64,000 nucleotides of DNA from Peptococcaceae bacterium UBA5752 (lineage in GTDB: Bacteria > Bacillota > Dehalobacteriia > UBA4068), in assembly GCA_002419055.1 (NCBI GenBank), contig DIFI01000021.1, forward strand, positions 24,102 to 88,101, read 5' to 3'. Of the stretch, positions 14,401-50,777 are shown piece after piece. Positions within the stretch are counted from its first letter, which is position 1, and every line of letters begins with the position of its first letter. The position numbers were made by a program, and so were the translations under genes. The notes beneath the pieces were generated by a model, which searched no databases, was not told the origin of the DNA, and saw only the letters and a program-made list of their open reading frames with translations.

Positions 14401-17400
14401 GATAACGACTTTGTCGGTGCGGCAGTTGGTAAACTCAATGCGGGCGGTACGATCAGTAACGTCATCAACTATGCTCCCATTGAAGCCAAGGAATGCATGA
14501 ACGTCGGCGGTATCGTCGGTTTTGTCGGCACGCCCGTCACGTATGGGACGAAATCAGACGCTTATGCCGAATATAACTCCAACCCCTCCGGCAGTAACAC
14601 CTATGTGCTCAACTGCGGCAATAACGCCACTGTACATGGTTTTTACAAGCTGGGCGGTATCGCCGGTGAAAGCGCGGGTATTGTTATGTACTGCTACAAT
14701 ACCGGCTACATCCTCCCGCACATGCACGGTTCCGGCGGCGGCTGGGGCGGCATTGTCGGACGCAACGGCAACAACAACACAGCGACCGAGGTCGGCACCA
14801 TTGCCTATTGCTGGAACAGCGGTACAGTTACCGACAACGGCATGAACGATGACCACAACGAGACGATCAAGTGGTATGGCGGTATCACTGCCTTTTGCAA
14901 CAGTAAGTCTTCTGTACACAACTGTTACAACATCGGCGCAATTCCTGCCGGACGCAACACTTTTTCGTCCATCATTGGTAACTGCGAAAGCACTATGGTT
15001 TACAACAACTGTTCGCTGATTTCCACCAGCATCAATAGCGACAGCACATATGAGAAAAACTTGGGCATACAGTTTGAGGAATCTGATTTCAAGAGCGCTG
15101 CCAATACGGATACCTCTATATTGACTGTGCTGGGCCCTGTTTTTGTCGCTGATACCGGAAATATTAACAACGGATATCCTGTCCTGCGCTGGCAGGCGGG
15201 CAGCAGCGCCGAACCGACGCTAACCTCTGTTTCGTTATTCTCGGTGCCGACAAAAATCGCTTATTATGAGCTGGAGACCTTTAATCCTGCAGGTATGAAG
15301 CTTAAAGCAACATACAGTGACGGAACTTATGCAATATTATCGGGCGGCTTCACTTATCCCACCGATCCGTTGTCTGACAGCACTAACAGCGTTACCGTTA
15401 GCTATGGCGGTTTTGATATTACTCAAGCCATCACGGTCTACAATCTCGATTCTATCGCTGTTACCACACAGCCTACCAAAACGGTTTACAATGCCACCGA
15501 TTTATTTAACAGATCCGGTATGGTAGTTACCGTTTACTACAGCGATAATACTTCGAAGGTGATTTATTCATATACTTATCCTACAACTCCTTTAACTGAT
15601 GACATGACCAGCGTTACTATCGGCTATGGCGACAAGACCACTACCCAGCCGATCACGGTCAATGCTTTAGGCTTGACCGTGATCGCGGTAACAACTGTGC
15701 CGACCAAGACTTTCTATCTCCCCGACGAATCATTTGATAATACCGGTATGGTAGTTAATGCAACATATAACAGTGCAGTGGTACAGCCTTTGGCTGCGGA
15801 AGACTACGTCGTCACTCCCGCCTCACTGACCATTGGTACAACTGCGGTCACCATCAGCTTTACCTATCTTGGCGTAACTCAGACCGCGTCTACTCCGGTG
15901 ACAGTGATATCTGCAACACCTGCCTTGGTTGACGGGTATTATCAGATAGTGAGCGCAGATGATCTTCGCTGGTTCGCCGATTATGTGAGCGTCCAGGGCA
16001 ATACAACTGCCTGCGCCAAGTTGGTCAATGATATTACCCTCACCTCTGATTGGACGCAGCCGATCGGTAACAGTACCAATAAGTTTGCCGGTACTTTTGA
16101 CGGTAACGGCAAGACGATCAGCGGCCTAGATAATGCTGCGGTGACCACACAGAATTTTGGTCTTATTGGCTATGGCTTAGGGGCTACTGTCAAAGACCTT
16201 ACAGTCGGCGGCGAAATCAGCACGACCGCCTCTAATACCGGTTTGGTTGCCGGTTGGGCCGACGGTTGCACTTTTACCAATATCACAGCCAACGGTTCGC
16301 TGACCAGAGCCAGCGGTACCCTAAACAATACTGCCGGTATCACAGGTTACGCCTGCAATGCCAGCGTATTAACTAACTGCGTGAACAATGCCGCTATTAC
16401 CTCCGGCGGTCAGTATACAGGCGGTATCGCCGGCAGCGCAGACGGCGCGACCAGCTTCTCCGGCTGTATCAATAACGGTGTGATCAATACTACCCATCGG
16501 TATATAGGTGGCATCGTCGGTTCGTTCGGCGGTACGGGCAACATCACATCCTGTATCAATAAAGGTGCAGTTACTGCCACCTATAACGTTGGTGGTATCG
16601 CCGGTAGATATAACTCAACCGGCAGCATGGAGAATTGCTATAACAGCGGTGCCATCGTCGCTACCTTATCATCAACATCTACTGCTTACGCTGCAGGCGG
16701 CGTGATCGGTTATTTCGGCGGCGCCGGTACTATAGACACCTGCTACAACAGCGGTGATGTCACCGGCGCTATCGGTAATGTCGGCGGTGTGGTCGGCTGT
16801 ATGTATGCGGCCAATAGCATACTGACCAACAGTTATAATACCGGCGACGTCTGTTACACCGGCAATGCCACTACTCCTTGCGTGGGCGGCGTTGTTGGCG
16901 CGACCAATGATGTTAGCTGCACGATCCAGAACTGTTACAACCGCGGCGCGGTAACCTTTGCTACAACCAAACCTTTGATCGGCTCCGTCGTCGGTACACC
17001 CAAGATCGGATATACCGCCATCAGCAATAACTATTATCTCAACACCACTTCTGCTGATGCGACATCTACAGCCAAAACTGCCGCTGAACTGAAGAATCTT
17101 GCTGCCACTTTGGGCGCAAGCTACAAGGCAGGCGGCATTTCACCTATCTTCACCTGGCAGCCGGATGAAGTATTTACCTCCGCAGCACCGGTAGTGAACG
17201 TAGATACTGTTACCGCCGATGTTCCGGATACGATCGTCATTGGCGCTAATGCCAATGTGGAAATCAACGCTTCGGCGGTGACTGTGGAAGATATCAACAC
17301 ATCAAATGTTTCAATTCCCGCAGCTTTGGTTGAGAATCTGGACAATGCCCAATCAGTCACCATTGTGACCAACATGGGTAATATCACATTTGACAACGCT

Positions 17401-19356
17401 GCTCTTGCTGATATTGTGGATAACGCTACCACGTCCCTGACCTTAGGCCTCGATCGAACCAGCGATGCGGACGGTGTTACGGTATATGAGCTGACGCTCA
17501 AAGACAGCGGCGGCAATAATGTCTTTACCGAAGGCTCCGCTACAGTCACATTGCCTTATACCCTGGCCGAAGCAAAAAGCCCTGATAGCGTCAAGGTTTT
17601 CTATGTGGCGAGCAACGGTACCAAGACAGAAGTGACCAATTGTACCTATGCCAACGGTTACGTCACTTTCACAGTTGAGCACTTCTCCACATACAGCATC
17701 GAGGCAGACAGCACCACAATCTCCGCAATTACCGCTGCCACTAATGCCAACGCCGGTGAAACCTTTACCGTCGATGTCAAGGTCAGCGGCGATGCAGCTC
17801 AGCAGTTTGCTTCCATGTCCGCCAATCTCAATTATGATAAGACCAAAGTAGCATTTGTAAGCTTTGCTGCGGGGGCCGGTACAACTGAAGCCAGCGCCTA
17901 TGATAATACAACTACCGCCAAGGTAAATATCCTCGAAAGCGGTGCGGATAAGACCATCGGCGCCGACGGCTTTGTGATCGGCACAATCACTTTCCGTGCC
18001 TTGACTGCCATCAGTACCGGCAATAGTGTTGCAGCTTTCTCTATCAGTGACGGTATGGTTGGTGATTCCGGTACACCGACTCCTGCGGTAAGCGCTTTGA
18101 GCGGTGCCAATATTTCCGTCAATTTGCATAATCTGGCGGTTATCTTCCAACAAGGCACGGGCAACACGCTGGCCGCTTCTACCGCATATGCCAAGTACAA
18201 TGCGGCGGGTCTCTTCGCCAGCAATGCCTATACCGATACTTTCACTATTCCTACTCCGGCAGCCTCTGATGGCTACCGCCTGGCGGATATCCTCTGGAAT
18301 AACGGTACCAACAATTACACTTCCGAACAGGTTGCGGCATTGGCTATAACCGCCAATGCGACCATGACTGCGCAATCAGTCAAAACCTACGCTGTAAGTT
18401 TCTATAATAGCGACGCCGCCCAGATAGGCAGCACCCAGAATATAGATACCGGCCTGACTGCCACTGCTCCGGCTGATCCTACTGCCCCGGCGGGCACTGC
18501 TTTTGTCGGTTGGTTTATAGCAGCCTCCAGCGACGCCACCTATGACGGCATTGCCACTCTCTACAGTAAAGCCCAGATTGACTTAGCTGCGGTGACTGCC
18601 GATACCATTTACAAAGCCTATTATTCAGATAATGAGTATGCGATCACCGTTCCTGTCGATGTGACCGTCGTCAGCGGCGTTACCGACAGTAAAGCCAAGC
18701 ACAACACTGACGTAGTCTTCACTGTCAGCACCACCACTGTGGATCAAGGTTATACCATCACTGTTTCCTATAAGGTAGGTACGGCTGATGCAGTAATCAT
18801 CACGAAGGATGCAGAGAACAAGTACACCATCCCCGGCTCTGCTATAACTGATGCGACAGTGATCACAGTCCAGAAAACGATCAACGGCACAATCAGCTAT
18901 ATCAACTATGACAATTACAAAGGCGCACCGGCCAATTATAAAGTGGCTCTGCTGACACTTAGCGACAGCGCTCCTGCGGATAGCAAATACCAGTATGACG
19001 GACAGGATATGTTTTTGGCTCAACCGGTCAATACTACTGCCGCATATGGTACCGGCGCCTACGTATTCTTCGTCGCCTCTGATGAGGATGCGGTGACTAC
19101 GTTATCCAAGATTGCGATTGTCAGCGGCACACAGCTGACTGTCGACTATGACGGAAACGTCAACGGTCTGAGTGAGGTAGAAATCAATGACGCGCAGTTG
19201 GTCTATGATTTGTATAATAATAACACCAATTATTCGTCCGACTTCAATCTCGCCACGATGCTGATGCGCTTTGAAGCCGATGTCAACGGCGACGGCACAA
19301 TCGGCGTCAACGACATCAGAATGATCTACAGCACTATCCGCGGTATCACTGAGTAA
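11464..19356 (+). CDS. Giant 2630-aa secreted multidomain protein: cohesin-like, 2x137-aa tandem repeats, Gly-rich beta-helix, 2 GLUG modules, Ig-like repeats, second cohesin-like, dockerin
   Basis: GTG start 9 nt after AAGGAG. Signal peptide. N-terminal cohesin-like GDSITIPVVITSNPGITAYGFAISYDSSNLTLDSI...NLFYLTFTVKNTA. Repeated GG[IV][AV]G...C[YI]N.GA[IV] GLUG periodicity. C-terminal DYDGNVNGLSEVEINDAQL / DVNGDGTIGVNDIRMI dockerin. A single uninterrupted ORF. Confidence 0.85.
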   Translation: MLQKLKKKNLTVLVIFIMVLALCVALPILATAEGTATVTVGSTTTAAAPGDSITIPVVITSNPGITAYGFAISYDSSNLTLDSISKTDNDSNTTDLCTSGSFTPNTASAGTGYVSWLDGGADITGTGNLFYLTFTVKNTAMGGNYAVSCTLTDGSAANCKNYAGSNVGVSFTDGIIEVVAPDTTAPTMTSVAPGEGLVALGASDNLVLTVTADDDAALSELEIDHSMEGTLPEFSVYADIANPYGTADDKAQFESAGVSVTYADGVWTIDFGSTITNTIVNNGGITFYMVLKDTSGNSWGSMSPTTAENTYAYTIARDTTAPTMTSVEPAEGAVELDASEDFVLTVTAHDDIELYELEIDHSMSSTLPEFSVYANSENPYGTAEDKAEFEAAGVSVTYGGGVWTIDFGDTATDAFVANGGITLYIVVKDMAGNSWGSMSPTTVENTYAYTITRKYIAAANFTDGVYAITSGGEYKLATDAAGTIQISTTDPVTISGNGTTGTANSGLSIDNTVAGADLTIEDLYITGAVTGSGMVEFTGKDNKLSLSGVSTLQRIGGSVWGNALIHVPATADLTIDGDGTVYLAQDGDGAAIGGNPSEINGNITINGGEIFCRSNKTGSSIGGGQSANGGNITINGGELNIFHNARGAILGGGGYSGSLVGNGGTVTMTGGNVSLFVNFTGAAIGGGGGSNSALEQDGGDLYITGGSLKTYINSNALSFWGLTTEGVTPVIITADKSTGVGGNAVHLLTMDVSGVTANDTGAAYVAYLDNETTDPIYSGGLHSYAYTGTSTNAMTYWQKSTTDNNLYLYVTGENHTVTVNDQKFNVTWDSGTSGFSVAAAPKIWDGTANTGWYNTTDTEFHLTMGNQLAGLAQIVNGTATGITQDSFSGKTVNIDNDIYLNDGTTSNNWTPIGDITHHFDGVFNGGGYNIYGMKIIATKGYAGLFGNVSGTVKNFKLYGSVTINSAIDGDIAKGSKTNTDNDFVGAAVGKLNAGGTISNVINYAPIEAKECMNVGGIVGFVGTPVTYGTKSDAYAEYNSNPSGSNTYVLNCGNNATVHGFYKLGGIAGESAGIVMYCYNTGYILPHMHGSGGGWGGIVGRNGNNNTATEVGTIAYCWNSGTVTDNGMNDDHNETIKWYGGITAFCNSKSSVHNCYNIGAIPAGRNTFSSIIGNCESTMVYNNCSLISTSINSDSTYEKNLGIQFEESDFKSAANTDTSILTVLGPVFVADTGNINNGYPVLRWQAGSSAEPTLTSVSLFSVPTKIAYYELETFNPAGMKLKATYSDGTYAILSGGFTYPTDPLSDSTNSVTVSYGGFDITQAITVYNLDSIAVTTQPTKTVYNATDLFNRSGMVVTVYYSDNTSKVIYSYTYPTTPLTDDMTSVTIGYGDKTTTQPITVNALGLTVIAVTTVPTKTFYLPDESFDNTGMVVNATYNSAVVQPLAAEDYVVTPASLTIGTTAVTISFTYLGVTQTASTPVTVISATPALVDGYYQIVSADDLRWFADYVSVQGNTTACAKLVNDITLTSDWTQPIGNSTNKFAGTFDGNGKTISGLDNAAVTTQNFGLIGYGLGATVKDLTVGGEISTTASNTGLVAGWADGCTFTNITANGSLTRASGTLNNTAGITGYACNASVLTNCVNNAAITSGGQYTGGIAGSADGATSFSGCINNGVINTTHRYIGGIVGSFGGTGNITSCINKGAVTATYNVGGIAGRYNSTGSMENCYNSGAIVATLSSTSTAYAAGGVIGYFGGAGTIDTCYNSGDVTGAIGNVGGVVGCMYAANSILTNSYNTGDVCYTGNATTPCVGGVVGATNDVSCTIQNCYNRGAVTFATTKPLIGSVVGTPKIGYTAISNNYYLNTTSADATSTAKTAAELKNLAATLGASYKAGGISPIFTWQPDEVFTSAAPVVNVDTVTADVPDTIVIGANANVEINASAVTVEDINTSNVSIPAALVENLDNAQSVTIVTNMGNITFDNAALADIVDNATTSLTLGLDRTSDADGVTVYELTLKDSGGNNVFTEGSATVTLPYTLAEAKSPDSVKVFYVASNGTKTEVTNCTYANGYVTFTVEHFSTYSIEADSTTISAITAATNANAGETFTVDVKVSGDAAQQFASMSANLNYDKTKVAFVSFAAGAGTTEASAYDNTTTAKVNILESGADKTIGADGFVIGTITFRALTAISTGNSVAAFSISDGMVGDSGTPTPAVSALSGANISVNLHNLAVIFQQGTGNTLAASTAYAKYNAAGLFASNAYTDTFTIPTPAASDGYRLADILWNNGTNNYTSEQVAALAITANATMTAQSVKTYAVSFYNSDAAQIGSTQNIDTGLTATAPADPTAPAGTAFVGWFIAASSDATYDGIATLYSKAQIDLAAVTADTIYKAYYSDNEYAITVPVDVTVVSGVTDSKAKHNTDVVFTVSTTTVDQGYTITVSYKVGTADAVIITKDAENKYTIPGSAITDATVITVQKTINGTISYINYDNYKGAPANYKVALLTLSDSAPADSKYQYDGQDMFLAQPVNTTAAYGTGAYVFFVASDEDAVTTLSKIAIVSGTQLTVDYDGNVNGLSEVEINDAQLVYDLYNNNTNYSSDFNLATMLMRFEADVNGDGTIGVNDIRMIYSTIRGITE
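12004..12825 (+). repeat. Two tandem ~411-nt (137-aa) near-identical coding repeats inside the giant gene
   Basis: PDTTAPTMTSVAPGEG...NTYAYTIA and RDTTAPTMTSVEPAEG...NTYAYTIT. High amino-acid identity; the nt-level similarity is visible by eye. Confidence 0.7.
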
Positions 19357-19384: not shown

Positions 19385-20722
19385 ATGAAACGATTTACAA
19401 TTACTATTATCGTTTGCATATTGATCTTTGCTTTGAGTATCTCCACCGCTTTGGCTGTTGATAACAGCAGAACATATTCTTTTCAACTCACCTCCAATGG
19501 CAGCAGTACTGCTGCCATTGGAGTGGGGGATATGATTACGGTGAAGTTTACTCTGGCGGCAGACAACAGCTATGCTTTGTATGCGATGCAGAATGAGATT
19601 AAGTATGACAGCCGCTATTTGCAATATGTTGATGGAAGCCTTAGTATGACCTCCGGTTTTAATTCCGGCTTTCGGGATATGGAGGATGGCATCAATAAAC
19701 TGGTGCTGATGAATTATGTTTCCGATACAGCAGAGGGAGAAACCATAAACTCCAGTGTCGTGGTGGGAACCTTCCAGTTGAAGGCCATCGCTAATGGAAC
19801 TTCGACTGTCAGCAACGAGGATTATTATTGCACAACCAAAACCGGTGCAAATAATTACACTGCTACCGCCAGTGATCTTATTGTCAACATTAAATCTTCC
19901 GGCGGCGGTGGCGGCGGTAGTAGTGTCACTTATTACACCATCAACGCCAGCGCCGGCGAGGGTGGCAGCATATCGCCTTCCGGCAGCGTCAGCGTAGCTC
20001 AGGACGGTTCACAAACTTTCACTATAAACCCCAACTATAGATATATTATAGAAGACGTACAGGTAGATGGCAAAAGCGTCGGCGACGTCAGCACATATGC
20101 CTTCTCCGCTGTCACTGCCAACCACACCATAAAAGCAACGTTCATTGCGGGAGAAGAGGAGCCAAACCTCACCGATCAATTCACCGACCTTGTCCCCGGC
20201 GCCTGGTATATAAACGGCATCAATTATGTTTTGCAGGCTGGACTGTTTAACGGTACCTCGGCAACCAGATTTAGTCCTGATGCCAATATGACGAGATCTA
20301 TGCTGGTAACGGTATTGTGGCGTTTAGACGGCACGCCTGACGCAACAGTAGACACCATCTTTAATGATGTGGCAGACGGTCTCTGGTACAGCGACGCTAT
20401 CGAATGGGCTGCGGCCAATAATATCGTCAACGGCTATGGCAACGGTAGGTTCGGTACCAATGACAGCATCACGCGCGAACAGATGGCGGTAATCTTATAT
20501 AACTATGCCAAAATTAAAGGTTACGATGTCAGCCAAACCACTTCACTCAGCAAATACACCGACACCGGCGATATTTCCGATTGGGCCAGCACAGCTATGG
20601 CCTGGGCCAATGCTACCGGCCTTGTCAACGGACGCACCGCTACAACTCTCGCTCCCGGCGGTACTGCCACAAGAGCTGAAGTTGCTACGATCTTAATGCG
20701 CTTTATCGAATATTACGTTTAA
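19385..20722 (+). CDS. Anchoring scaffoldin-like protein: cohesin-like domain + InlB-B-repeat-like middle domain + 3x SLH
   Basis: AGGAG RBS and a signal peptide. Cohesin-like MITVKFTLAADNSYALYAMQNEIKYDSRYLQYVDGS. Gly8 linker. Three SLH motifs (FTDLVPGAWYING.., FNDVADGLWYSDA.., YTDTGDISDWAST..). Confidence 0.85.
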   Translation: MKRFTITIIVCILIFALSISTALAVDNSRTYSFQLTSNGSSTAAIGVGDMITVKFTLAADNSYALYAMQNEIKYDSRYLQYVDGSLSMTSGFNSGFRDMEDGINKLVLMNYVSDTAEGETINSSVVVGTFQLKAIANGTSTVSNEDYYCTTKTGANNYTATASDLIVNIKSSGGGGGGSSVTYYTINASAGEGGSISPSGSVSVAQDGSQTFTINPNYRYIIEDVQVDGKSVGDVSTYAFSAVTANHTIKATFIAGEEEPNLTDQFTDLVPGAWYINGINYVLQAGLFNGTSATRFSPDANMTRSMLVTVLWRLDGTPDATVDTIFNDVADGLWYSDAIEWAAANNIVNGYGNGRFGTNDSITREQMAVILYNYAKIKGYDVSQTTSLSKYTDTGDISDWASTAMAWANATGLVNGRTATTLAPGGTATRAEVATILMRFIEYYV

Positions 20723-23913: not shown

Positions 23914-25296
23914 TTGAAAATTTGCTTTCAAAAACTAATTGTTATAATGATAATTACATCATTGGTAATTGCGTGCGGCAGTGCAGTATTAGCAGCCGAT
24001 ATCACTGTTACCATCAGCGGCGACGGTGTTACTACGCAACAAAGCTTTACCGGTGAGCAATTGGCGGCAATGACTGATCAAATACAGCAGCATTATTATT
24101 CCTCAATTAATAACTGGCCCACCAATAAAAATGTTTATGCGAAAGGCATCTCGCTTTCATATTTGTTGCAGCTGTCGGGTATCAAGGATGAGGCTACCTT
24201 GATTAAGATCACCAGCACCGACGGATATTACAAAACTTTTACCGTCTCCGAGTTGCTAGATTCCGAGCGTTACAGCTACAGTGACGGTAGAGCTACAGAA
24301 GTGCCGGTAATTTTAGGCTTGCAAAGCAGCGATAGTTCTTTCGCATCTATGACGGACGATCAGGCCCCGGTATTGGTAATAGGACAGCGCGCGGCAACAG
24401 AACAAACATTTCCTTGGTTTATTAAAAACGTTAGTACTATAGAAGTCAGCGCTGATACGTTAGCGCGGTGGCCGCAAGCAACATATGAGATTAACGATGC
24501 TGCAAACGGTTATCAGCTGGAGCTGAATCATAGCAATTTTGATACGGTTAAGCTCTATTATACAACTGACAGCACTACCCCGTCTGTTGAGAGTAATATG
24601 TATAATATCAGCACTACCTATTGGCAACCGGATCTGATCGTGCCGCTGCAGCTTACCGCCGGTACGGTTGTCAAAGTTATCGCCATCGGCCCCGGCAAGC
24701 CGGACAGTGAAGTTGTGACCATCAACTTGCCGACAACATCTGCCGGAACAGACCTGTCGTTTAGCGATGTGGCAAAAAACAGCTGGTATTATGATGCAGT
24801 TGATTATGTTAGTAACAAGGGATTATTCCAAGGCACATCGATAACAACATTTTCGCCCATGGCTCCAATGACACGCGCCATGTTTGTAACGGTACTTTAT
24901 CGGCTTTCCGGTGAGATATATTCGTCTACTACGGCCAAATTTAGCGATGTAGAATCCGGCAGTTGGTATGCCGATGCCGTTACCTGGGCTTCCGAAAAGG
25001 GAATAGTCAACGGTTACGGTAATGGTACATTCAGACCGTTAAATGCGGTGACCAGGGAGCAGATGGCTTTGATAATGTTCAATTATCTTAAATGCATTGG
25101 CGAAGGACCGCAGGGAGCTTGGATGATCAACCTAAATTACCCGGACAAATCTGCTATCAGTGATTGGGCTTTTGAAGCGGTAACGTATTGTACAATGAGA
25201 GGTTTGCTCAGCGGACGCAGTAACGGCAATTTTGATCCGCAGGGAACGGCCAACAGAGCGGAAGTGGCGACAGTGATGATGCGCTTTGACAAATAA
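23914..25296 (+). CDS. SLH-anchored (3x SLH) surface protein with N-terminal RYYYP-type domain
   Basis: TTG start (ATG 23947 is an alternative). Signal-like N-terminus. HYYSSINNWP...GISLSYLLQLSGI...ITSTDGYY...ERYSYS. Three SLH motifs at the C-terminus. Confidence 0.75.
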   Translation: MKICFQKLIVIMIITSLVIACGSAVLAADITVTISGDGVTTQQSFTGEQLAAMTDQIQQHYYSSINNWPTNKNVYAKGISLSYLLQLSGIKDEATLIKITSTDGYYKTFTVSELLDSERYSYSDGRATEVPVILGLQSSDSSFASMTDDQAPVLVIGQRAATEQTFPWFIKNVSTIEVSADTLARWPQATYEINDAANGYQLELNHSNFDTVKLYYTTDSTTPSVESNMYNISTTYWQPDLIVPLQLTAGTVVKVIAIGPGKPDSEVVTINLPTTSAGTDLSFSDVAKNSWYYDAVDYVSNKGLFQGTSITTFSPMAPMTRAMFVTVLYRLSGEIYSSTTAKFSDVESGSWYADAVTWASEKGIVNGYGNGTFRPLNAVTREQMALIMFNYLKCIGEGPQGAWMINLNYPDKSAISDWAFEAVTYCTMRGLLSGRSNGNFDPQGTANRAEVATVMMRFDK

Positions 25297-25432
25297 AGAT
25301 AAATAAAAGCTAAGAAAGTATTTGCATTTTAATAAACAGCGTGCTATAATGTGTTATAGTTTGAAGTTGCTAGCAGGAAGTGGGTGTTTTTACCCACTTT
25401 TTGTTTTACGAATGGAGATTAAAGATAATATA

Positions 25433-25918
25433 ATGGCTAAAAAAAAGTCATTCACGGTTGATTATAATCGTATTGAAAAATTAATTTGGCAGTTGACCGA
25501 ACCTGTGATGGTTGAAGTCGGCTGCGAATTGGTAGATGTGCAATATGTTAAAGAAGGTCCTAACCGGTATTTGCGCCTGTTCATTGATCGCGAGCCGCCG
25601 GTTGACCATATTTGTTGTCAGTCAGTCAGCGAACGGATCAGCGATATAATAGACAAAGTAGACCCGATTGAACAAAGTTACTATCTTGAGGTATCTTCTC
25701 CGGGGGTTGAGCGTCCTTTGCGCAAAGCCGAGGATTTCGCCCGTTTTGCCGGTGAGCAGGTTATTGTTAATCTTTATGCACCTTTAAACGGCGTAAAACA
25801 ATATAAAGGTCTATTAATCGGACTTGAAGAAGAGCAGATCGTTATTGAGGCAGAGGGTAATCGCCTTGCATTCGCAAAAGAAACAGTTGCCAATGCTCAT
25901 ATAGCGGCTGATTTATAA
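25433..25918 (+). CDS. rimP: Ribosome maturation factor RimP
   Basis: ATG 25433 after GGAG. Contains the LEVSSPGVERPL motif. Confidence 0.85.
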   Translation: MAKKKSFTVDYNRIEKLIWQLTEPVMVEVGCELVDVQYVKEGPNRYLRLFIDREPPVDHICCQSVSERISDIIDKVDPIEQSYYLEVSSPGVERPLRKAEDFARFAGEQVIVNLYAPLNGVKQYKGLLIGLEEEQIVIEAEGNRLAFAKETVANAHIAADL

Positions 25919-25969
25919 AAAAATCAAGTTTATTTTTGTATTTGTTAGTTTTGATAAGGAGAGAAGAAC

Positions 25970-27079
25970 ATGGCAGTGAATTTAGAATTAATCGAGGCCC
26001 TAAAAAATCTGGAAAAAGAAAAGGGCATTGAAATGGATGTCTTAATCGAAGCGATTGAAGCAGCTTTGATTTCTGCGTATAAAAAACATTTTGGCTCTTC
26101 GCAAAATGTTCGGGTTGAGATTAACAAAAGCAATGGTGATATTCACGTATATTATCGAAAAACGGTAGTCGAGCAAGTTGAAGATTCGACTTTGGAAATG
26201 TCGATTGAGGAGGCCAAAAACTATGATCCCGATTTCGAAATAGGCGATATATTTGAATCAGAAGTAACACCCCGCTCTTTTGGCAGGATTGCTGCCCAAA
26301 CAGCCAAACATGTGGTAGTACAAAGAATTCGCGAGGCTGAACGCAGCATGGTTTACGATCAGTATGCTACAAGAATGGAAGATATAGTGATAGCCACTGT
26401 GCTTCGTTATGAAGGACGAAATGTAATCATCGATTTGGGACGCAGCGAGGCAGTCTTAATGCCTTCCGAGCAAATCCCGCGTGAAAATTATATTCAGGGA
26501 GAACGTATCAAGGTTTATATACTAGAGGTAAAAAAGACCACCAGAGGACCGCAAATTATGGTTTCGCGCACTCACCCCGGGATGCTCAAAAAACTTTTTG
26601 AACGCGAGGTGCCGGAGATTCACGACGGTACGGTTGAAATTAGATCGGTAGTCCGTGAGCCCGGTTATCGTTCAAAAATTGCCGTATTCAGTAAAAATGA
26701 AAACGTTGATCCGGTGGGCGCGTGTGTCGGCGCCAAAGGAATGCGTGTTCAGTCAATAGTCAACGAACTTGCCGGCGAAAAGATCGAAATTGTTCGCTAT
26801 GACGATGATCCGGCCGTATATGTAAGTAACGCATTGGCCCCTGCAAAAGTAATCAGCGTTTCTGTTAGTGTTCCAGATAAATTCACCCAAGTGGTTGTGC
26901 CTGATTATCAACTGTCGCTGGCTATTGGCAAGGAAGGTCAAAACGCACGTTTGGCCGCACGATTGACCGGCTGGAAGATCGATATTAAGAGCGAAAGCCA
27001 AATGGTGGAAATTATGGGCGAGCAAGATCCGAATGATGATAATGATATAGAAGACCTGGTTGAGGATACGGAGGCGTAA
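25970..27079 (+). CDS. nusA: Transcription termination/antitermination factor NusA
   Basis: S1 and two KH domains (GxxG). Conserved synteny. Confidence 0.95.
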   Translation: MAVNLELIEALKNLEKEKGIEMDVLIEAIEAALISAYKKHFGSSQNVRVEINKSNGDIHVYYRKTVVEQVEDSTLEMSIEEAKNYDPDFEIGDIFESEVTPRSFGRIAAQTAKHVVVQRIREAERSMVYDQYATRMEDIVIATVLRYEGRNVIIDLGRSEAVLMPSEQIPRENYIQGERIKVYILEVKKTTRGPQIMVSRTHPGMLKKLFEREVPEIHDGTVEIRSVVREPGYRSKIAVFSKNENVDPVGACVGAKGMRVQSIVNELAGEKIEIVRYDDDPAVYVSNALAPAKVISVSVSVPDKFTQVVVPDYQLSLAIGKEGQNARLAARLTGWKIDIKSESQMVEIMGEQDPNDDNDIEDLVEDTEA

Positions 27080-47140: not shown

Positions 47141-47917
47141 ATGTTATTTGCTATCGATTGCGGCAATACCCATATTGTGGCCGGTATTTATGATGAAAGC
47201 AAGCTTGTTCGCTATTGGCGCTTGGGCAGTGATATCAAAAAAACAGAAGACGAATATATGGCAACATTCTGTGAGCTGTTCCGCTCAGAACAAATTGAGG
47301 CTGAAAGTATTGATGCGATGATCATCGCATCTGTAGTACCTGATATAACTTTTGTGATGAATAAATTGGCGCGTAAATATTTACAGCTTAAGCCAACGAT
47401 AGTTGGTAGCCGCACCGATACCGGCATTACTATTGATTACGACTATCCGGAAGAAGTAGGCGCCGACCGGATAGTTAATGCAGTTGCCGCGCACCGGATT
47501 TATGGCGGCTGTTTAATTGTGGTTGATTTTGGCACAGCCACTACGTTTGACTGTGTTTCCGAAGACGGCTGTTATTTGGGCGGAGCGATCGCGCCCGGCA
47601 TTGAAATATCGAAGCGGGCCTTGTTTGAGCATGCCGCCAAGCTGGCAAATATCCCGTTGGAGCGGCCGGAGCATGTGATTGGCAAAAATACTACCGAGAG
47701 CCTCCAATCCGGTATTCTCTGGGGCTTTGCCTCGCAGGTAGACGGAATAGTGGCGCGTATGAGCGAGGAATTAGCGCAAAAGCCGCGGGTGATTGCCACC
47801 GGCGGGCTGGCGCGGATCATTTCCGCATATAGCGAAAGTATTGACAGCGTTAATCCATTGCTGACGCTTGAGGGGTTGCGGTTTATCTATGAGCGTGGAA
47901 TGGCAGCGGTTGAATAG
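47141..47917 (+). CDS. coaX: Type III pantothenate kinase
   Basis: MLFAIDCGNTH; GADR; AGGAGGGG RBS. Confidence 0.9.
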   Translation: MLFAIDCGNTHIVAGIYDESKLVRYWRLGSDIKKTEDEYMATFCELFRSEQIEAESIDAMIIASVVPDITFVMNKLARKYLQLKPTIVGSRTDTGITIDYDYPEEVGADRIVNAVAAHRIYGGCLIVVDFGTATTFDCVSEDGCYLGGAIAPGIEISKRALFEHAAKLANIPLERPEHVIGKNTTESLQSGILWGFASQVDGIVARMSEELAQKPRVIATGGLARIISAYSESIDSVNPLLTLEGLRFIYERGMAAVE

Positions 47918-47931
47918 ATTACCATTATAAG

Positions 47932-47960
47932 ATAAAAACAAAAGCAAAGCTATATTGGCC
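47932..47960 (+). terminator. Terminator-like hairpin after coaX
   Basis: AAGCAAAGC...GCCTTGCTT + T6 (one mismatch). Confidence 0.4.
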
Positions 47961-48339
47961 TTGCTTTTTTACTTAATATACTTATTTGTACAATTAAAGC
48001 AAATGAATTATCATTTTGCTTAATAGGGAAAAATTTTAGATTTAATTAACCGGGAATTTAAAGCATCTGCTTACCCTTTTACTTTCTTAAATGTTAGACC
48101 TTGGAGAAATTATTTGGATGAAATTAAAAATGTGATACAATTAGATGCAAATAGAATAAGAACTTATATATTTTTGATGTTGATGATGATACCATGTAAA
48201 CCTGCTTGTCTAAAAGTAGTGTGATGAATGGTTGATTTTTTTTATTTCATGCCGATATACAAATAGGATAGGATGAGCTTTTTTTCATGGTAAATCCGGT
48301 AAATAGCATGAGGTTTATTACTAGGGAGGGTTAATATAT

Positions 48340-49197
48340 ATGAAAAATGTTGCTATCGTAGGCGCGGGGCATGGTGGTACGTCTATTCTTAAATCATTGC
48401 AGGGAATAGCAGCCATAAATGTGATGGGTATATGTGATTTAGATGATAATGCCCCGGGAATTGTCATGGCTCGCAGACTTGGCGTAGATACCTACTCTGA
48501 TATAAAGAAGATTGTGACGCTTCCGTTGCTGGATCTATTGATAGAAGTCACCGGTGTGCCAAAAGTACAAGAGCTGATCAACCAACATAAAAGTGAACAT
48601 GTTGCTATAATCGATTCTCATGGTGCCAACCTGATGATGAATATTGTTGAGGCCCGTGAAGAAATGATTGCCGGACTACATCATGAAGCGGAAAAGCTGG
48701 CAAATCTGTCTACCGAATTATCCAGCACTATGGAAACGGCAACCCAGCTGGTAAAAGAGGTAAGTGGCTATGCCCATGATGTTAACGCCAAAAGTATAGA
48801 ACTAATAGATTCTGCCGGTGAGGCTAACATACAATTAAAAGAAACCGGGGAAGTCTTAGTTATTATCAATAAAATTGCCCAACAAACCAAATTTTTGGGT
48901 CTAAATGCCGCCATTGAAGCAGCTCACAGCGGGGTACACGGTAAAGGTTTTGCGGTTGTGGCCGATGAGGTCAGAAAACTGGCAGAAGATAGCACCGTCT
49001 CGGTATCGAAAATTTCTACGATCTTGTCCAATATTCAAAAATCAGTTGTAGTTATTAACAACGGCGTAAATGAGGCCGCCGTGGTGATACAAAAACAAGA
49101 CCAGCTAACAGATTCGGTCTCCAATAGTATTTATTCGCTGAAATCAATGTCGCAGGAATTGAATACGCTGGCCCAACACCTAGCTCAATTAGCTTAA
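48340..49197 (+). CDS. Soluble MCP-signalling-domain protein with N-terminal Rossmann-like domain
   Basis: AGGGAGGG RBS. N-terminus [15 protein letters not shown]-terminus [37 protein letters not shown] (MCP signature). No TM segments. Confidence 0.75.
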
Positions 49198-49203
49198 ACC
49201 GAA

Positions 49204-49256
49204 GCTAAAAAGCAAGGAAAGCACGGAAGGCAAGGAAAGCAAGGAAAGCAAGGGAA
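49204..49256 (+). repeat. Short tandem repeat (GCAAGGAAA-like x4-5)
   Basis: aaaaagcaaggaaagcacggaaggcaaggaaagcaaggaaagcaaggg. Confidence 0.5.
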
Positions 49257-49260
49257 AAAT

Positions 49261-49370
49261 TGGCGCGGATCATTTCCGCTTATAGTGAGAGCATTGATAT
49301 CGTCAATCCTTTGCTGACGCTTGAGGGGTTGCGGTTTATCTATGAGCGGCCAAGGGCGACGGTTGAATAG
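49261..49370 (+). pseudogene. Duplicated 3'-terminal 110-nt fragment of coaX (about 85% identity to 47808..47917)
   Basis: TGGCGCGGATCATTTCCGC...CTGACGCTTGAGGGGTTGCGGTTTATCTATGAGCG...GGTTGAATAG is shared between the two sites. Confidence 0.7.
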
Positions 49371-49412
49371 GCAGCGGTTGAGATTGTTTCCCTTTAATAT
49401 GCAAGCAAAGAA

Positions 49413-49447
49413 AAAGCAAGGCTAATAAAATAGCCTTGCTTTTTGGC
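49413..49447 (+). terminator. Terminator hairpin, paralogous to the one after coaX
   Basis: AAGCAAGGCTA...TAGCCTTGCTT + T5. Confidence 0.5.
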
Positions 49448-49466
49448 TTAGAACAAAGATTGCTGA

Positions 49467-50777
49467 TTATCCCAGTTTGTTGATAGCCAGTCCGGCGATA
49501 ACTTTGGGAGAGAAAAACGTTGATTTTTGGGGCATCTTTTCGCCTTCGTCGGCGACTGCCAGCAATTCATCAACCGATGTACTGTTAAGCAGCAAGGCGA
49601 AATTATGCTCGCCGCTGTCGACCATGGCAATCGCTTCTTTGTCGTCGCGGCTGTAGGAGATAGCAGCGCCGGAAGCCAATTCTTCTTTTCCGATCGAGAA
49701 GATGTTTTCCAATATCAGCTTATGAGCGATACTGACATCCAGCTTGCGGGAGGCGTCAGACGTATTGGGCATCATTTTGGTCAGCAAGTGATGGCTGCGG
49801 TTGGTGGTCAGCAGATAGTAGCTGCCCTGCATATATAAACCAAAGGCTGCATTTTCTTTGTCGCTTTTTTCTTTCATAGCGTCTAATGTCATGTCTAATG
49901 GATCTTGCCCATTATCTGCAGTGATTTTATTAATAGCAAACCCTGTATTTGTTAATTGATCAAGAAAAAATTCGGGGCGAAAATCCGCTTGCTTCTTTAA
50001 CAATCTGTGGGTCGGCAGTACAATCAATCCCGGATCGAAAAGATTAACCAGGTCAATTAAGAGATAATCGCAGTTGCTCCAGCCATTTTTGGCAGCTTCT
50101 TTGGCAAAATTGGTTGCGGTTTCGTAACGGTGATGACCGTCTGCAATATATATTTTTTGGCTGGCCAGCTCTTTTTCGACTTGTGCTACTGTTTCCGCAT
50201 CATCGACGACCCAAATCTGGTGACGGACATTAAGCTCGTCGGTAAAATCGATAGCAGCTTCTTTATTTTGGGCAGCCGCCGCCAGCGCTTTGTCGCAGCT
50301 GCGGTCGGGTTGGGAATAGAGGCCGAAAATGGGGCTAAAATTTGCCAGGCAGGCATGCATCAGATTCAAACGGTCGCTTTTGTGATGCGGCAGCGTTTGT
50401 TCATGTGGCAGCACGTTGCCCGAGGAATAGCCTTCCGCCTTGATCGTCGCCAGAAAACCGCTGCGGCGGTAACGGTTGCCTTTGGCGGTAAATTCTTGAC
50501 AGTAAAGATAAAATGAGGGCTTTTGTTCCTGTAATAACACACCCGCTTGCTGCCATTCGCCAAAAAATTCGGCAGCGCGCGTATAGCGGTTATCGGTATC
50601 GCTGTCTTGCGGGTATTGTTTGCCCAATTCGAGGCGGATAATATTGTACGGGCTGCGATTATAATAATCATCTTGCTGCTTTTCATCTAACACGTCATAA
50701 GGTTGGGTAACTGCGTCAGCAATCTTGACCATTTGTTGATTATAGCGTAAAGCGCGAAAAGCTTTGATATCTGCCAT
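49467..50777 (-). CDS. DUF1015-family protein
   Basis: N-terminal MADIKAFRALRYN and an IADGHHR motif. AAGGAG RBS. Confidence 0.65.
   Translation of the reverse strand: MADIKAFRALRYNQQMVKIADAVTQPYDVLDEKQQDDYYNRSPYNIIRLELGKQYPQDSDTDNRYTRAAEFFGEWQQAGVLLQEQKPSFYLYCQEFTAKGNRYRRSGFLATIKAEGYSSGNVLPHEQTLPHHKSDRLNLMHACLANFSPIFGLYSQPDRSCDKALAAAAQNKEAAIDFTDELNVRHQIWVVDDAETVAQVEKELASQKIYIADGHHRYETATNFAKEAAKNGWSNCDYLLIDLVNLFDPGLIVLPTHRLLKKQADFRPEFFLDQLTNTGFAINKITADNGQDPLDMTLDAMKEKSDKENAAFGLYMQGSYYLLTTNRSHHLLTKMMPNTSDASRKLDVSIAHKLILENIFSIGKEELASGAAISYSRDDKEAIAMVDSGEHNFALLLNSTSVDELLAVADEGEKMPQKSTFFSPKVIAGLAINKLG

What the first reader, a model, noticed from the sequence alone, without database searches (positions are those of the whole stretch)
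47808..49447. A ~150-bp direct duplication of the coaX 3' end plus terminator flanks an inserted MCP-domain gene
Positions 47808..47960 (the last 110 nt of coaX plus its terminator hairpin) are repeated at 49261..49447, at about 85% identity in the coding part. Between them lie an AT-rich region, a gene for an MCP-signalling-domain protein, and a GCAAGGAAA-like short tandem repeat. The second copy retains the TGAATAG stop context but has no 5' part of coaX, so it is a pseudogene fragment. This looks like a target-site-like duplication from insertion of the 1.3-kb segment, or from a local duplication followed by gene replacement.
Basis: seen in the sequence. Interest (0 to 1): 0.55.

Follow-up and report, generated by a model that had tools for sequence, protein, structure and literature searches.

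The report
Chemoreceptor-like gene inserted after coaX
The repeat is real: in this lineage a small chemoreceptor-like gene with its own promoter was inserted between coaX and the DUF1015 gene, with the end of coaX and its terminator copied on both sides, which makes it an old and fairly ordinary rearrangement scar with no sign of a mobile element.

Summary
The last 37 codons of coaX, the terminator hairpin and the spacer up to the DUF1015 stop codon occur twice, at 47807-47996 and 49260-49469. The coding part is 87% identical over 110 nt.

Two relatives at about 80% nt identity (UBA4068 and a Logan contig) have birA-coaX-terminator-DUF1015-comM with one copy and nothing between. The window therefore carries a 1453-bp insertion.

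The cargo has three parts:
- 225 nt of AT-rich DNA of unknown origin.
- A 285-aa soluble Rossmann + MCP-hairpin gene with its own conserved promoter. Its closest homologues sit at other loci and have no flanking repeats.
- A partial third copy of the terminator's left arm, expanded into (AAAGCAAGG)x5.

I found no integrase or transposase within 15 kb, no terminal inverted repeats, and no phage or plasmid match.

The two copies are old and mosaic. The 5' 51 nt differ at 9 sites, while a 38-nt core is identical although it carries 5 lineage-specific substitutions (Fisher p about 0.001). This points to gene conversion between the copies.

The origin is most likely recombinase-independent, by template switching at the terminator or by single-crossover integration, but that step is inferred rather than shown. 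Interest is low to moderate.

The parts
47141..47917 (+). coaX (type III pantothenate kinase), intact, 258 aa
   Evidence: PF03309, E = 2e-74. 90-91% aa identity to orthologues in L007 and L028.
47807..47996 (+). Repeat copy 1: last 37 codons of coaX (47807-47917), a 22-nt spacer, terminator T1, and the spacer ending in TTA (47994-47996), which corresponds to the DUF1015 stop codon
   Evidence: blastn homology to the empty site in L007 runs to 47979.
47858..47895 (+). 38-nt core, identical in both copies (equals 49311-49348); carries 5 substitutions shared by both copies and absent from three relatives
   Evidence: Fisher test of shared versus copy-specific changes, segment A versus core: p = 0.001.
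47940..47968 (+). Terminator hairpin T1 (11 pairs with one A.C mismatch, followed by a T run); it terminates coaX
   Evidence: -11.2 kcal/mol, z = -2.4. The left arm, AAAAGCAAAGC, is identical to that of the relatives.
47997..48221 (+). AT-rich segment U1 (GC 0.27) of unknown origin
   Evidence: No match in the window, in the loci, in phages or in plasmids. No residual similarity to the upstream regions of MCP homologues (z < 0.2). No Rfam hit.
48232..48261 (+). Promoter-like element of the inserted gene (TTGATT, 17-18 nt, (GA)TATACA), conserved upstream of homologues at three other kinds of locus
   Evidence: Alignment A5. blastn homology to L004 begins at 48222.
48340..49197 (+). Inserted gene: 285-aa soluble protein made of an N-terminal NAD(P)-type Rossmann domain and an MCP signalling hairpin
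   Evidence: PF00015, E = 4e-23. AF2 model with pLDDT 82. Foldseek matches the N-terminal ~100 aa to the NAD domain of DmpF 1nvm_B. A fixed-length 285-aa family, mostly from Syntrophomonadaceae.
49202..49259 (+). U3: a partial third copy of the terminator's left arm (AAGCTAAAAAGCAAGG), a 9-nt tandem array (AAAGCAAGG)x5 at 49209-49253, then GAAAAA
   Evidence: (D2, I5). The motif occurs only at T1, T2 and here in the 64 kb.
49260..49469 (+). Repeat copy 2: coaX 3' fragment (49260-49370; 36 codons from TTG, then TAG), a second partial copy of the coaX end (GCAGCGGTTGA, 49371-49381), terminator T2, and the spacer up to the DUF1015 stop codon
   Evidence: (tblastn 89% over CoaX residues 223-258).
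49411..49444 (.). Terminator hairpin T2: a perfect 14-bp stem with an A run and a T run, so it can act in both directions. It is the only terminator downstream of the inserted gene and also serves DUF1015
   Evidence: I8; -24.1 kcal/mol for 49371-49460.
49467..50777 (-). DUF1015 gene, convergent with coaX; intact
   Evidence: PF06245, E = 1.7e-90. 84-87% aa identity to L007 and L028.

Best explanation
This is the scar of an old insertion that happened in this lineage and did not involve a mobile-element recombinase.

What is there. About 1.27 kb was placed in the convergent coaX/DUF1015 intergenic region. It consists of AT-rich DNA of unknown origin, a chemoreceptor-like gene with its own promoter, and a slipped copy of the terminator's left arm. 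The target (the last 37 codons of coaX, the bidirectional terminator and the spacer up to the DUF1015 stop codon) ended up on both sides of it.

Functional outcome, as read from the sequence:
- coaX keeps a full reading frame and terminator T1.
- The new gene is transcribed from its own promoter. It uses the coaX fragment plus T2 as its 3' untranslated region and terminator.
- DUF1015 keeps T2.

Later history. The two copies diverged for a long time. A short tract that includes the 38-nt core was later made identical by gene conversion, or by a crossover, between them.

How the structure first arose is inferred, not shown:
- My preferred route (about 0.35-0.4) is replication template switching or break repair started at the terminator hairpin. 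Synthesis would leave the locus after T, copy the cargo from elsewhere, and re-enter 190 nt upstream. The slippage scars would date from that event.
- The second route (about 0.25) is single-crossover integration of a circular DNA that already carried a coaX-3' homologue.
For: Shown by tool results:
- The repeat is real.
- Two relatives have empty sites with one copy of the segment, and both window copies align to it. More distant coaX loci have no MCP gene.
- The cargo gene's closest homologues (80-84% aa) lie at other loci, amt-MCP-FIST/GGDEF and MFS-MCP near rimP. Homology is limited to the promoter through 4 nt past the stop codon (window 48222-49201), and those loci have no flanking repeats.
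- There is no integrase, transposase or other mobile-element gene among the ORFs of 150 aa or more from 11.4 to 64 kb.
- There are no inverted repeats at the ends of the insert other than the terminator arms.
- There is no phage, plasmid or IMG/VR relative.
- The terminator motif is not a dispersed repeat.
- Mosaic divergence: segment A has 1 shared and 11 copy-specific changes, and the core has 5 shared and 0 copy-specific changes (Fisher p = 0.001). The core's identity is not explained by base composition, since 4.5 differences are expected (P = 0.011).

Slippage-type scars at the right junction, which favour a replication or repair origin:
- The 9-nt x5 array, whose unit equals the terminator's left arm.
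- The 15-nt tandem re-copy of the coaX end in copy 2.

T1 and T2 both fold as terminators.
Against: - The source of the cargo and of the AT-rich segment was not found. No junction microhomology could therefore be examined, and copy versus move is undecided (the search led nowhere).
- Neither copy is uniformly closer to the ancestral sequence. Copy 2 has the more ancestral coding tail (2 vs 6 specific changes). Copy 1 has the more ancestral terminator left arm and spacer. No single-step model predicts this.
- The identical core flanked by diverged arms is also the pattern expected of att sites.
- All empty-site relatives are about 20% diverged and cluster together, so polarity (gain here versus loss there) rests on more distant loci that also lack DUF1015 next to coaX.
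- All assemblies come from one enrichment culture, and reads were not available.
Confidence: 0.6

Rival explanations
1. Campbell-type integration. A circular DNA of about 1.45 kb carried a homologue of the coaX 3' end and terminator together with the MCP cassette. It could have been a loop-out product from a related genome or a circularised piece of transforming DNA. It recombined with the chromosome inside the 38-nt identical core, producing two hybrid repeats.
For: - Full-length homology of both repeats, from codon -37 to the DUF1015 stop codon.
- An identical core flanked on both sides by diverged arms.
- Copy 1's coding tail is the more derived one and copy 2's the more ancestral (6 vs 2 specific changes), as expected if the tail now attached to coaX came in with the insert.
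- 8 of the 9 differences in the 5' arm are synonymous. This would fit two coaX ends that diverged while each was part of a working gene.
Against: - It needs a pre-existing molecule that already joined the coaX end to the cargo, so it only pushes the origin back.
- The core carries 5 derived substitutions shared by both copies while the arms are star-like. Donor and host would have to be identical in the core yet about 20% apart next to it.
- T1, which would be insert-derived, is closer to the relatives than T2, the opposite of the prediction.
- The synonymous bias is explained by C-to-T bias: 5 of 6 copy-2-specific changes are C-to-T, and 12 of 18 C sites are synonymous for C-to-T (my count).
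Confidence: 0.25
2. Remnant of a site-specific integrative element (prophage, ICE or IME) that targeted the 3' end of coaX and carried a replacement 3' end, as e14 does at icd. Nearly all of the element was later deleted, leaving att-like repeats around one cargo gene (a CIME-like element that could still be moved in trans).
For: - The geometry matches e14 at icd, which has an intact gene extending into the element and a displaced C-terminal pseudogene at the far end (PMC13626634, read).
- An identical 38-nt core within diverged repeats.
- Two contigs from other metagenomes end within 31 nt of the coaX 3' end. One of them diverges 8 nt before the usual stop codon, which could mean the site is variable in the clade.
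Against: - No integrase, excisionase or any phage or conjugation gene between the repeats or within about 15 kb.
- No viral contig carries the coaX core or a close MCP relative, and there are no phage or plasmid hits.
- The upstream arm of copy 2 is also homologous to coaX, which attP arms do not need to be.
- The displaced copy is not clearly more host-like than the attached one: 19 vs 20 differences to L028 and 23 vs 26 to UBA4068.
- The cargo is a family gene with its native promoter, found at ordinary chromosomal loci elsewhere.
Confidence: 0.08
3. Assembly artefact. The two 'copies' are allelic coaX ends of two co-existing strains, or a chromosome plus a small circle, threaded into one contig through the shared 38-nt core.
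For: - All evidence comes from metagenome assemblies of one enrichment culture.
- The Logan k=31 unitig runs exactly from core to core (47866-49340). The de Bruijn graph therefore cannot by itself tell the integrated form from an empty site plus a circle.
Against: - Two different JGI assemblies, which differ elsewhere by frameshifts, give the identical integrated arrangement on contigs of 160-162 kb.
- A 38-nt repeat is spanned by ordinary reads.
- The junctions T1 -> U1 and U3 -> copy 2 are novel sequence lying inside a single unitig.
- Copy 2 starts abruptly inside coaX after a 9-nt array, which strain mixing does not produce.
- A 1.45-kb circle without replication functions is not a plausible stable replicon.
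Confidence: 0.04
4. The arrangement is ancestral, and the relatives lost the MCP gene by recombination between the two repeats.
For: - The three close relatives (L028, UBA4068, L015/16) form one tight cluster (1-4 differences among them in segment A), so gain and loss each need one event.
- In segment A the duplication looks almost as old as the split (1 shared vs 11 copy-specific changes).
Against: - More distant coaX loci (L047, L049) have no MCP gene after coaX.
- The relatives' single copy lacks the roughly 17-36 nt between the stop codon and the terminator that both window copies share. That sequence would have to be removed as well.
- UBA4068 and Ga0068712 carry their MCP homologue at a different, shared locus (amt-MCP-FIST/GGDEF), diverged about as much as the rest of the genome (82.6% nt).
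Confidence: 0.05

Closest known systems
e14 prophage at icd in E. coli K-12 (icd / icdC)
   Same: An insert sits inside the 3' end of a housekeeping gene. The gene stays intact because a second copy of its 3' end lies at the proximal end of the insert, and a C-terminal pseudogene fragment is left at the distal end. The two copies differ mostly at synonymous sites and can recombine (PMC13626634).
   Different: - e14 is a 15-kb prophage with its own integrase and SOS-induced excision. Here the cargo is 1.27 kb with a single ordinary gene and no recombinase nearby.
- Here the duplication also includes the terminator and the whole intergenic spacer.
- Neither copy here is clearly the 'host' one.
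CIMEs: cis-mobilisable, integrase-less elements flanked by att sites at the 3' end of a gene (for example at fda in Streptococcus thermophilus). This comparison is from my own knowledge and was not checked in the literature here.
   Same: A short insert without recombination genes, bounded by direct repeats that contain the 3' end of a housekeeping gene.
   Different: CIMEs are recognised by att sites shared with related ICEs at the same site. No related element at coaX was found in any collection searched. The repeats here are 190-210 nt and about 13-18% diverged, not short conserved att cores.
Duplications with templated junction insertions from replication template switching or break-induced replication (MMBIR/FoSTeS-type events). 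This comparison is from my own knowledge.
   Same: - A segment is duplicated, with foreign or ectopic sequence between the copies.
- The junctions lie at hairpin-forming sequence.
- There are slippage scars (the 9-nt x5 array and the 15-nt re-copy).
- No recombinase is needed.
   Different: The template for the inserted DNA was not found, so microhomology at the switch points could not be tested. Such events are documented mainly in eukaryotes and in laboratory bacterial systems.
Transposon or IS target-site duplication
   Same: Direct repeats of target sequence flank an insert.
   Different: TSDs are typically 2-15 bp and start out identical. Here the repeats are 190-210 nt, and there is no transposase and no terminal inverted repeat.

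Membership tests
Integrase-mediated integrative element at a gene 3' end (e14/icd type, or a CIME-like remnant) | A tyrosine or serine recombinase gene in or next to the element (or, for a CIME, a related integrase-bearing element using the same site elsewhere) | tested here: not met
   The insert holds only the MCP-like ORF. Pfam scans of the ORFs of 150 aa or more from 11.4 to 64 kb show housekeeping genes and no recombinase. No related element was found at coaX in the genome, metagenome or viral collections.
Integrase-mediated integrative element at a gene 3' end (e14/icd type, or a CIME-like remnant) | Direct repeats (attL/attR) that share an identical core at the crossover site | tested here: met
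   The 38-nt core 47858-47895 is identical to 49311-49348 and is flanked by diverged arms. This feature is not specific, because gene conversion gives the same pattern.
Integrase-mediated integrative element at a gene 3' end (e14/icd type, or a CIME-like remnant) | The distal (displaced) fragment is host-derived, so it should be closer to orthologues than the proximal copy | tested here: inconclusive
   Differences to L028 are 19 (copy 2) vs 20 (copy 1), and to UBA4068 23 vs 26. The coding tail favours copy 2 as ancestral, whereas the terminator and spacer favour copy 1.
Integrase-mediated integrative element at a gene 3' end (e14/icd type, or a CIME-like remnant) | Excision and circular forms exist | not testable with these tools
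   This needs the raw reads or PCR. The Logan unitig topology is uninformative.
Transposable element (IS, MITE or transposon) with a target-site duplication | A transposase or terminal inverted repeats, and a short identical TSD | tested here: not met
   There are no inverted repeats at the insert ends other than the terminator arms. There is no transposase. The repeats are 190-210 nt and 87% identical. There is no second copy of any part of the insert in the window.
Integron gene cassette | An attC site at the cassette end, a promoterless cassette, and intI/attI nearby | tested here: not met
   The cassette carries its own conserved promoter. There is no intI nearby. The hairpins are A/T-flanked terminators that relatives have at the empty site.
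Type III pantothenate kinase (coaX), for 47141-47917 | A full-length match to the Pan_kinase family above the curated cut-off | tested here: met
   PF03309: 250 bits against a cut-off of 24.7, covering profile positions 2-205 of 205.
Methyl-accepting chemotaxis protein, for 48340-49197 | An MCP signalling domain (a helical hairpin with the conserved tip) | tested here: met
   PF00015: 82.6 bits against a cut-off of 34.6. The AF2 model shows a hairpin at 93-196/202-284. The tip motif [23 protein letters not shown] is conserved. Methylation sites, CheW/CheA coupling and a role in taxis were not tested.

The most novel reading that the evidence does not exclude
The 1453-bp unit is a minimal mobile cassette without its own recombinase. 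It would consist of a replacement coaX C-terminus and terminator plus a one-gene cargo with its own promoter. It would enter and leave the chromosome by recombination at the 38-bp core inside coaX, either through RecA or through an integrase supplied in trans, switching a chemoreceptor-like sensor on and off in the population. The identical core within otherwise diverged repeats, and the contig breaks at the coaX 3' end in two other metagenomes, would be traces of that activity.
Probability: 0.07. Interest if true: 0.55.

Novelty: new member of a known kind. Interest (0 to 1): 0.25.

Why it matters
This is a clean, datable example of how a single regulatory or sensory gene can be added to a tightly packed convergent intergenic region without damaging either neighbour. 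The duplication supplies a terminator for each transcription unit and keeps coaX intact.

The mosaic pattern shows that repeats of only about 100-200 nt still exchange sequence in this genome. The inserted gene could therefore be lost again by loop-out.

For annotation, the 36-codon coaX fragment should be marked as a pseudogene remnant lying in the 3' UTR of the inserted gene.

It does not reveal a new kind of mobile element or a new mechanism.

Tried and rejected
- Source locus of the cargo. I searched for the SCADC orthologue of the FIST-GGDEF gene that follows the MCP homologue in UBA4068. The best hits were only 63-65% identical and came from other organisms at unrelated loci. tblastx of the L004, L003, L006 and L032 flanks against the window found only rimP/nusA. 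Copy versus move stays undecided.
- Origin of the AT-rich 225 nt. There was no blastn match in the loci, window, phages or plasmids, no residual alignment signal to the upstream regions of MCP homologues, no Rfam family, and only ORFs of 36 aa or less.
- Phage or plasmid link. A degenerate coaX-core pattern and the MCP protein searched against IMG/VR gave only generic MCP-domain hits.
- Dispersed terminator-repeat family as a recombination substrate. Rejected, because the motif is confined to T1, T2 and U3, and the 9-nt array is absent from all other loci.
- Flanking repeats around MCP homologues at other loci. None were found, so the gene is not generally repeat-flanked.
- 'Copy 2 evolved under coding constraint.' This was suggested because 8 of 9 differences are synonymous. 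I did not adopt it, because 5 of 6 copy-2-specific changes are C-to-T and most C sites are third positions.
Full report
**1.

The repeat finder reports 47808-47917 and 49261-49370 as a 110-nt direct repeat at 87% identity, 1453 bp apart (pairwise alignment). blastn gives E = 1e-33 for the pair and finds no further copy in the 64 kb.

- 47141-47917 is a full-length type III pantothenate kinase (PF03309, E = 2e-74).
- 48340-49197 carries an MCP signalling domain (PF00015, E = 4e-23).
- 49467-50777 on the minus strand is DUF1015 (PF06245).

The 9-nt tandem array is 49209-49253, five copies of AAAGCAAGG. The stretch after the first copy has GC 0.27.

Alignment with relatives shows the duplicated unit is longer than reported. 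It begins at the Leu codon 47807/49260 (CTG vs TTG). It continues through the terminator to the TTA that is the DUF1015 stop codon on the other strand, at 47994-47996 and 49467-49469. Copy 1 is therefore 47807-47996 and copy 2 is 49260-49469.

**2. Provenance and assembly support**

The window matches contigs of 160-162 kb in two JGI metagenomes (3300000568 and 3300002219, the latter named SCADCLC). The second is 100% identical to the window over 10.8 kb. The first differs elsewhere by frameshifts, so these are distinct assemblies of one culture, and both have coaX-MCP-DUF1015.

A Logan contig from SRR636559 covers exactly 47866-49340. That is the k=31 unitig between the two occurrences of the identical core. 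It confirms the inner junctions but cannot tell an integrated insert from an empty site plus a circle.

Reads were not available. I rate a mis-threaded assembly as unlikely (about 4%), because a 38-nt repeat is spanned by ordinary reads and two assemblies agree.

**3. It is an insertion**

'Peptococcaceae bacterium UBA4068' (L007) and a Logan contig (L028) have CoaX 90-91% and DUF1015 84-87% identical in protein, and are about 77-82% identical in DNA. Both have birA-coaX-terminator-DUF1015-comM with a single copy of the segment and no gene in between. Both window copies align to that single segment.

More distant coaX loci keep birA-coaX, but are followed by an MscS gene or by nrdR-nrdD, and again have no MCP gene. 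One gain in the window's lineage is therefore the simplest reading. Loss in the relatives is not formally excluded, because the three close relatives cluster tightly.

**4. The cargo**

The 285-aa protein belongs to a fixed-length family with more than 100 clusters, mostly from Syntrophomonadaceae MAGs (alignment).

An AlphaFold model (pLDDT 82) shows an N-terminal Rossmann-type domain (residues 1-92, with a GxGxxG motif) followed by one long helical hairpin. Foldseek matches the N-terminal ~100 residues to the NAD-binding domain of acylating acetaldehyde dehydrogenase DmpF and to Gfo/Idh/MocA enzymes.

The closest homologues (80-84% aa) lie at other loci:
- amt-MCP-FIST/GGDEF in UBA4068 and in metagenome Ga0068712.
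- MFS-MCP upstream of rimP-nusA in two other genomes.

Across all these contexts, homology is confined to a conserved promoter-like element (TTGATT, 17-18 nt, TATA(A/C)A) through 4 nt past the stop codon, which is window 48222-49201. None of the other loci has flanking repeats.

The 225 nt between copy 1 and that promoter (47997-48221) match nothing. There was no hit in the loci, the window, phages or plasmids, no Rfam family, and no residual similarity to the upstream regions of the homologues.

**5. No mobile-element signature**

- The ORFs of 150 aa or more from 11.4 to 64 kb are ordinary chromosomal genes, mostly housekeeping: cohesin/SLH surface proteins, rimP-nusA-infB, truB-ribF, pnp, glycine cleavage, lplA, fhs, bioY, birA, comM, dus and an ECF transporter. 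There is no integrase or transposase.
- The only inverted repeats at the insert ends are the terminator arms.
- The coaX core pattern is absent from IMG/VR, and viral contigs contain only generic MCP-domain relatives.
- The terminator motif AAAAGCAAGGC is not a dispersed repeat. All good matches are T1, T2 and the sequence just after the MCP stop codon.

**6. Fine structure of the junctions**

- T1 (47940-47968) keeps the relatives' left arm (GCAAAGC) but has the derived right arm (GCCTTGC), which gives one A.C mismatch (-11 kcal/mol).
- T2 (49411-49444) has both changes and forms a perfect 14-bp stem with an A run and a T run (-24 kcal/mol). It is the only terminator after the MCP gene.
- Immediately after the MCP stop codon there is a partial third copy of the left arm (AAGCTAAAAAGCAAGG, 49202-49217). 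It is followed by the 9-nt array, whose unit is the same left-arm core.
- Copy 2 contains a 15-nt re-copy of the coaX end (GCGACGGTTGAATAG then GCAGCGGTTGA).

These are slippage-type features concentrated at the right-hand junction.

**7. Age and mosaicism**

I polarised the differences with the three relatives.

| Segment | Differences between copies | Shared derived changes | Specific to copy 1 | Specific to copy 2 |
|---|---|---|---|---|
| 5' 51 nt | 9 | 1 | 5 | 6 |
| 38-nt core | 0 | 5 | 0 | 0 |
| 22-nt coding tail | 6 | 1 | 6 | 2 |

- Shared versus copy-specific changes differ between the 5' segment and the core at Fisher p = 0.001.
- From the per-base difference rates in the 5' segment, 4.5 differences are expected in the core (P of none = 0.011).
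- In its arms the duplication is therefore nearly as old as the split from the relatives. The core was homogenised later by gene conversion or a crossover between the copies.
- Eight of the nine 5' differences are synonymous. This could mean both ends diverged inside working genes.
- However, five of the six changes specific to copy 2 are C-to-T, and most C sites are third codon positions. Mutation bias is a sufficient explanation, and I do not rely on the synonymous pattern.
- Neither copy is uniformly ancestral. Copy 2 has the more ancestral tail, and copy 1 has the more ancestral terminator arm and spacer.

**8. How it works now (read from the sequence)**

- coaX is intact and ends at T1.
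- The inserted gene has its own promoter and Shine-Dalgarno sequence (AGGGAGGG, 48323-48330). It has no terminator of its own, so its transcript should run through the 9-nt array and the coaX fragment to T2.
- T2 also terminates the convergent DUF1015 gene.
- The coaX fragment is thus a pseudogene remnant now lying in a 3' UTR.
- It retains an open 36-codon frame that now starts with TTG, 5 nt after AAGGGA. I consider translation unlikely and did not test it.

**9. How it arose (inferred)**

| Route | Probability | Main argument for | Main argument against |
|---|---|---|---|
| Template switching or break repair at the terminator hairpin, leaving the locus after T, copying cargo from elsewhere and re-entering 190 nt upstream | 0.35-0.4 | No recombinase, a composite cargo, and slippage scars | The template was not found, so junction microhomology could not be read |
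| Single-crossover integration of a circular DNA that already carried a coaX-3' homologue | 0.25 | Explains the identical core and the derived tail of copy 1 | Needs a pre-formed coaX-cargo molecule and mispredicts the terminators |
| Decayed integrase-borne element of the e14/icd type (PMC13626634) | 0.08 | The geometry fits | The recombinase test fails, and no related element was found |
| Ancestral arrangement lost in the relatives | 0.05 | Gain and loss each need one event | More distant coaX loci lack the MCP gene |
| Assembly artefact | 0.04 | All data come from one culture | Two assemblies agree, and reads span a 38-nt repeat |

**10. Verdict**

It is a lineage-specific gene insertion flanked by a long, old, partly homogenised duplication of the target.

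It belongs to a known kind of rearrangement scar. The unusual details are that the duplication includes a bidirectional terminator and that no mobile-element machinery is present. It neither reveals nor requires a new mechanism. Interest is 0.25.

The most novel reading still open is a minimal cassette without its own recombinase that cycles through the 38-bp core. I give it about 7%, and it could be tested directly with the reads.

Noticed in passing
window 48340-49197: The inserted gene belongs to a fixed-length (285 aa) soluble family that fuses an NAD(P)-type Rossmann domain (GxGxxG at residues 8-13; fold match to the DmpF/Gfo-Idh-MocA NAD domains) to a single MCP signalling hairpin. The family has more than 100 clusters, mostly from Syntrophomonadaceae MAGs, annotated only as 'methyl-accepting chemotaxis protein'. 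It may be a cytoplasmic redox or nucleotide sensor. One literature search did not turn up a paper describing such a family.
   Followed up: partly
L015 4760-4791 and L016 4760 (contig ends): Two contigs from different metagenomes (CoaX 88-89% identical to the window's) both end within 31 nt of the coaX 3' end. L015 departs from all other orthologues 8 nt before the usual stop codon (…GACGGTCAGCGCCGAAAGGGCCTTTCT). This could be another variable junction at the same site, or just low coverage.
   Followed up: partly
window 49202-49259: The 9-nt array in the 3' UTR of the MCP-like gene contains four or five evenly spaced AAGGA/ACGGA motifs, which resemble CsrA-type GGA binding sites. This rests on my own knowledge of the motif and was not tested. 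The array is absent from all homologous loci.
   Followed up: no
window 49260-49370: The coaX fragment is still an open 36-codon frame. Its first codon changed from CTG to the possible start codon TTG, and it lies 5 nt after an AAGGGA Shine-Dalgarno-like sequence. Translation is unlikely but not excluded.
   Followed up: no
window 47997-48021: The first bases of the AT-rich insert form a small hairpin (AAGCAAA-N11-TTTGCTT) whose stem resembles the terminator arm motif. Its significance is unknown.
   Followed up: no
window 11464-19356 and 19385-20722, 23914-25296: A 2630-aa ORF with cohesin domains is followed by a cohesin+SLH protein, and a second SLH protein lies upstream of rimP. Together they look like a large cell-surface scaffold locus.
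   Followed up: no
L001 vs L026 (same locus, two assemblies): In assembly 3300000568 the fhs gene (FTHFS) is split (94 + 497 aa) and comM is fused to dus (845 aa). In 3300002219 and in the window they are normal (585 aa; 512 + 336 aa). This indicates frameshift errors in the first assembly.
   Followed up: partly
L003, L006, L032 vs window 25322-27079: In three other genomes the MCP homologue or the FIST-GGDEF gene lies a few kb upstream of rimP-nusA. In the window, rimP-nusA lies 21-23 kb upstream of the inserted MCP gene, and none of those neighbouring genes is present.
   Followed up: partly
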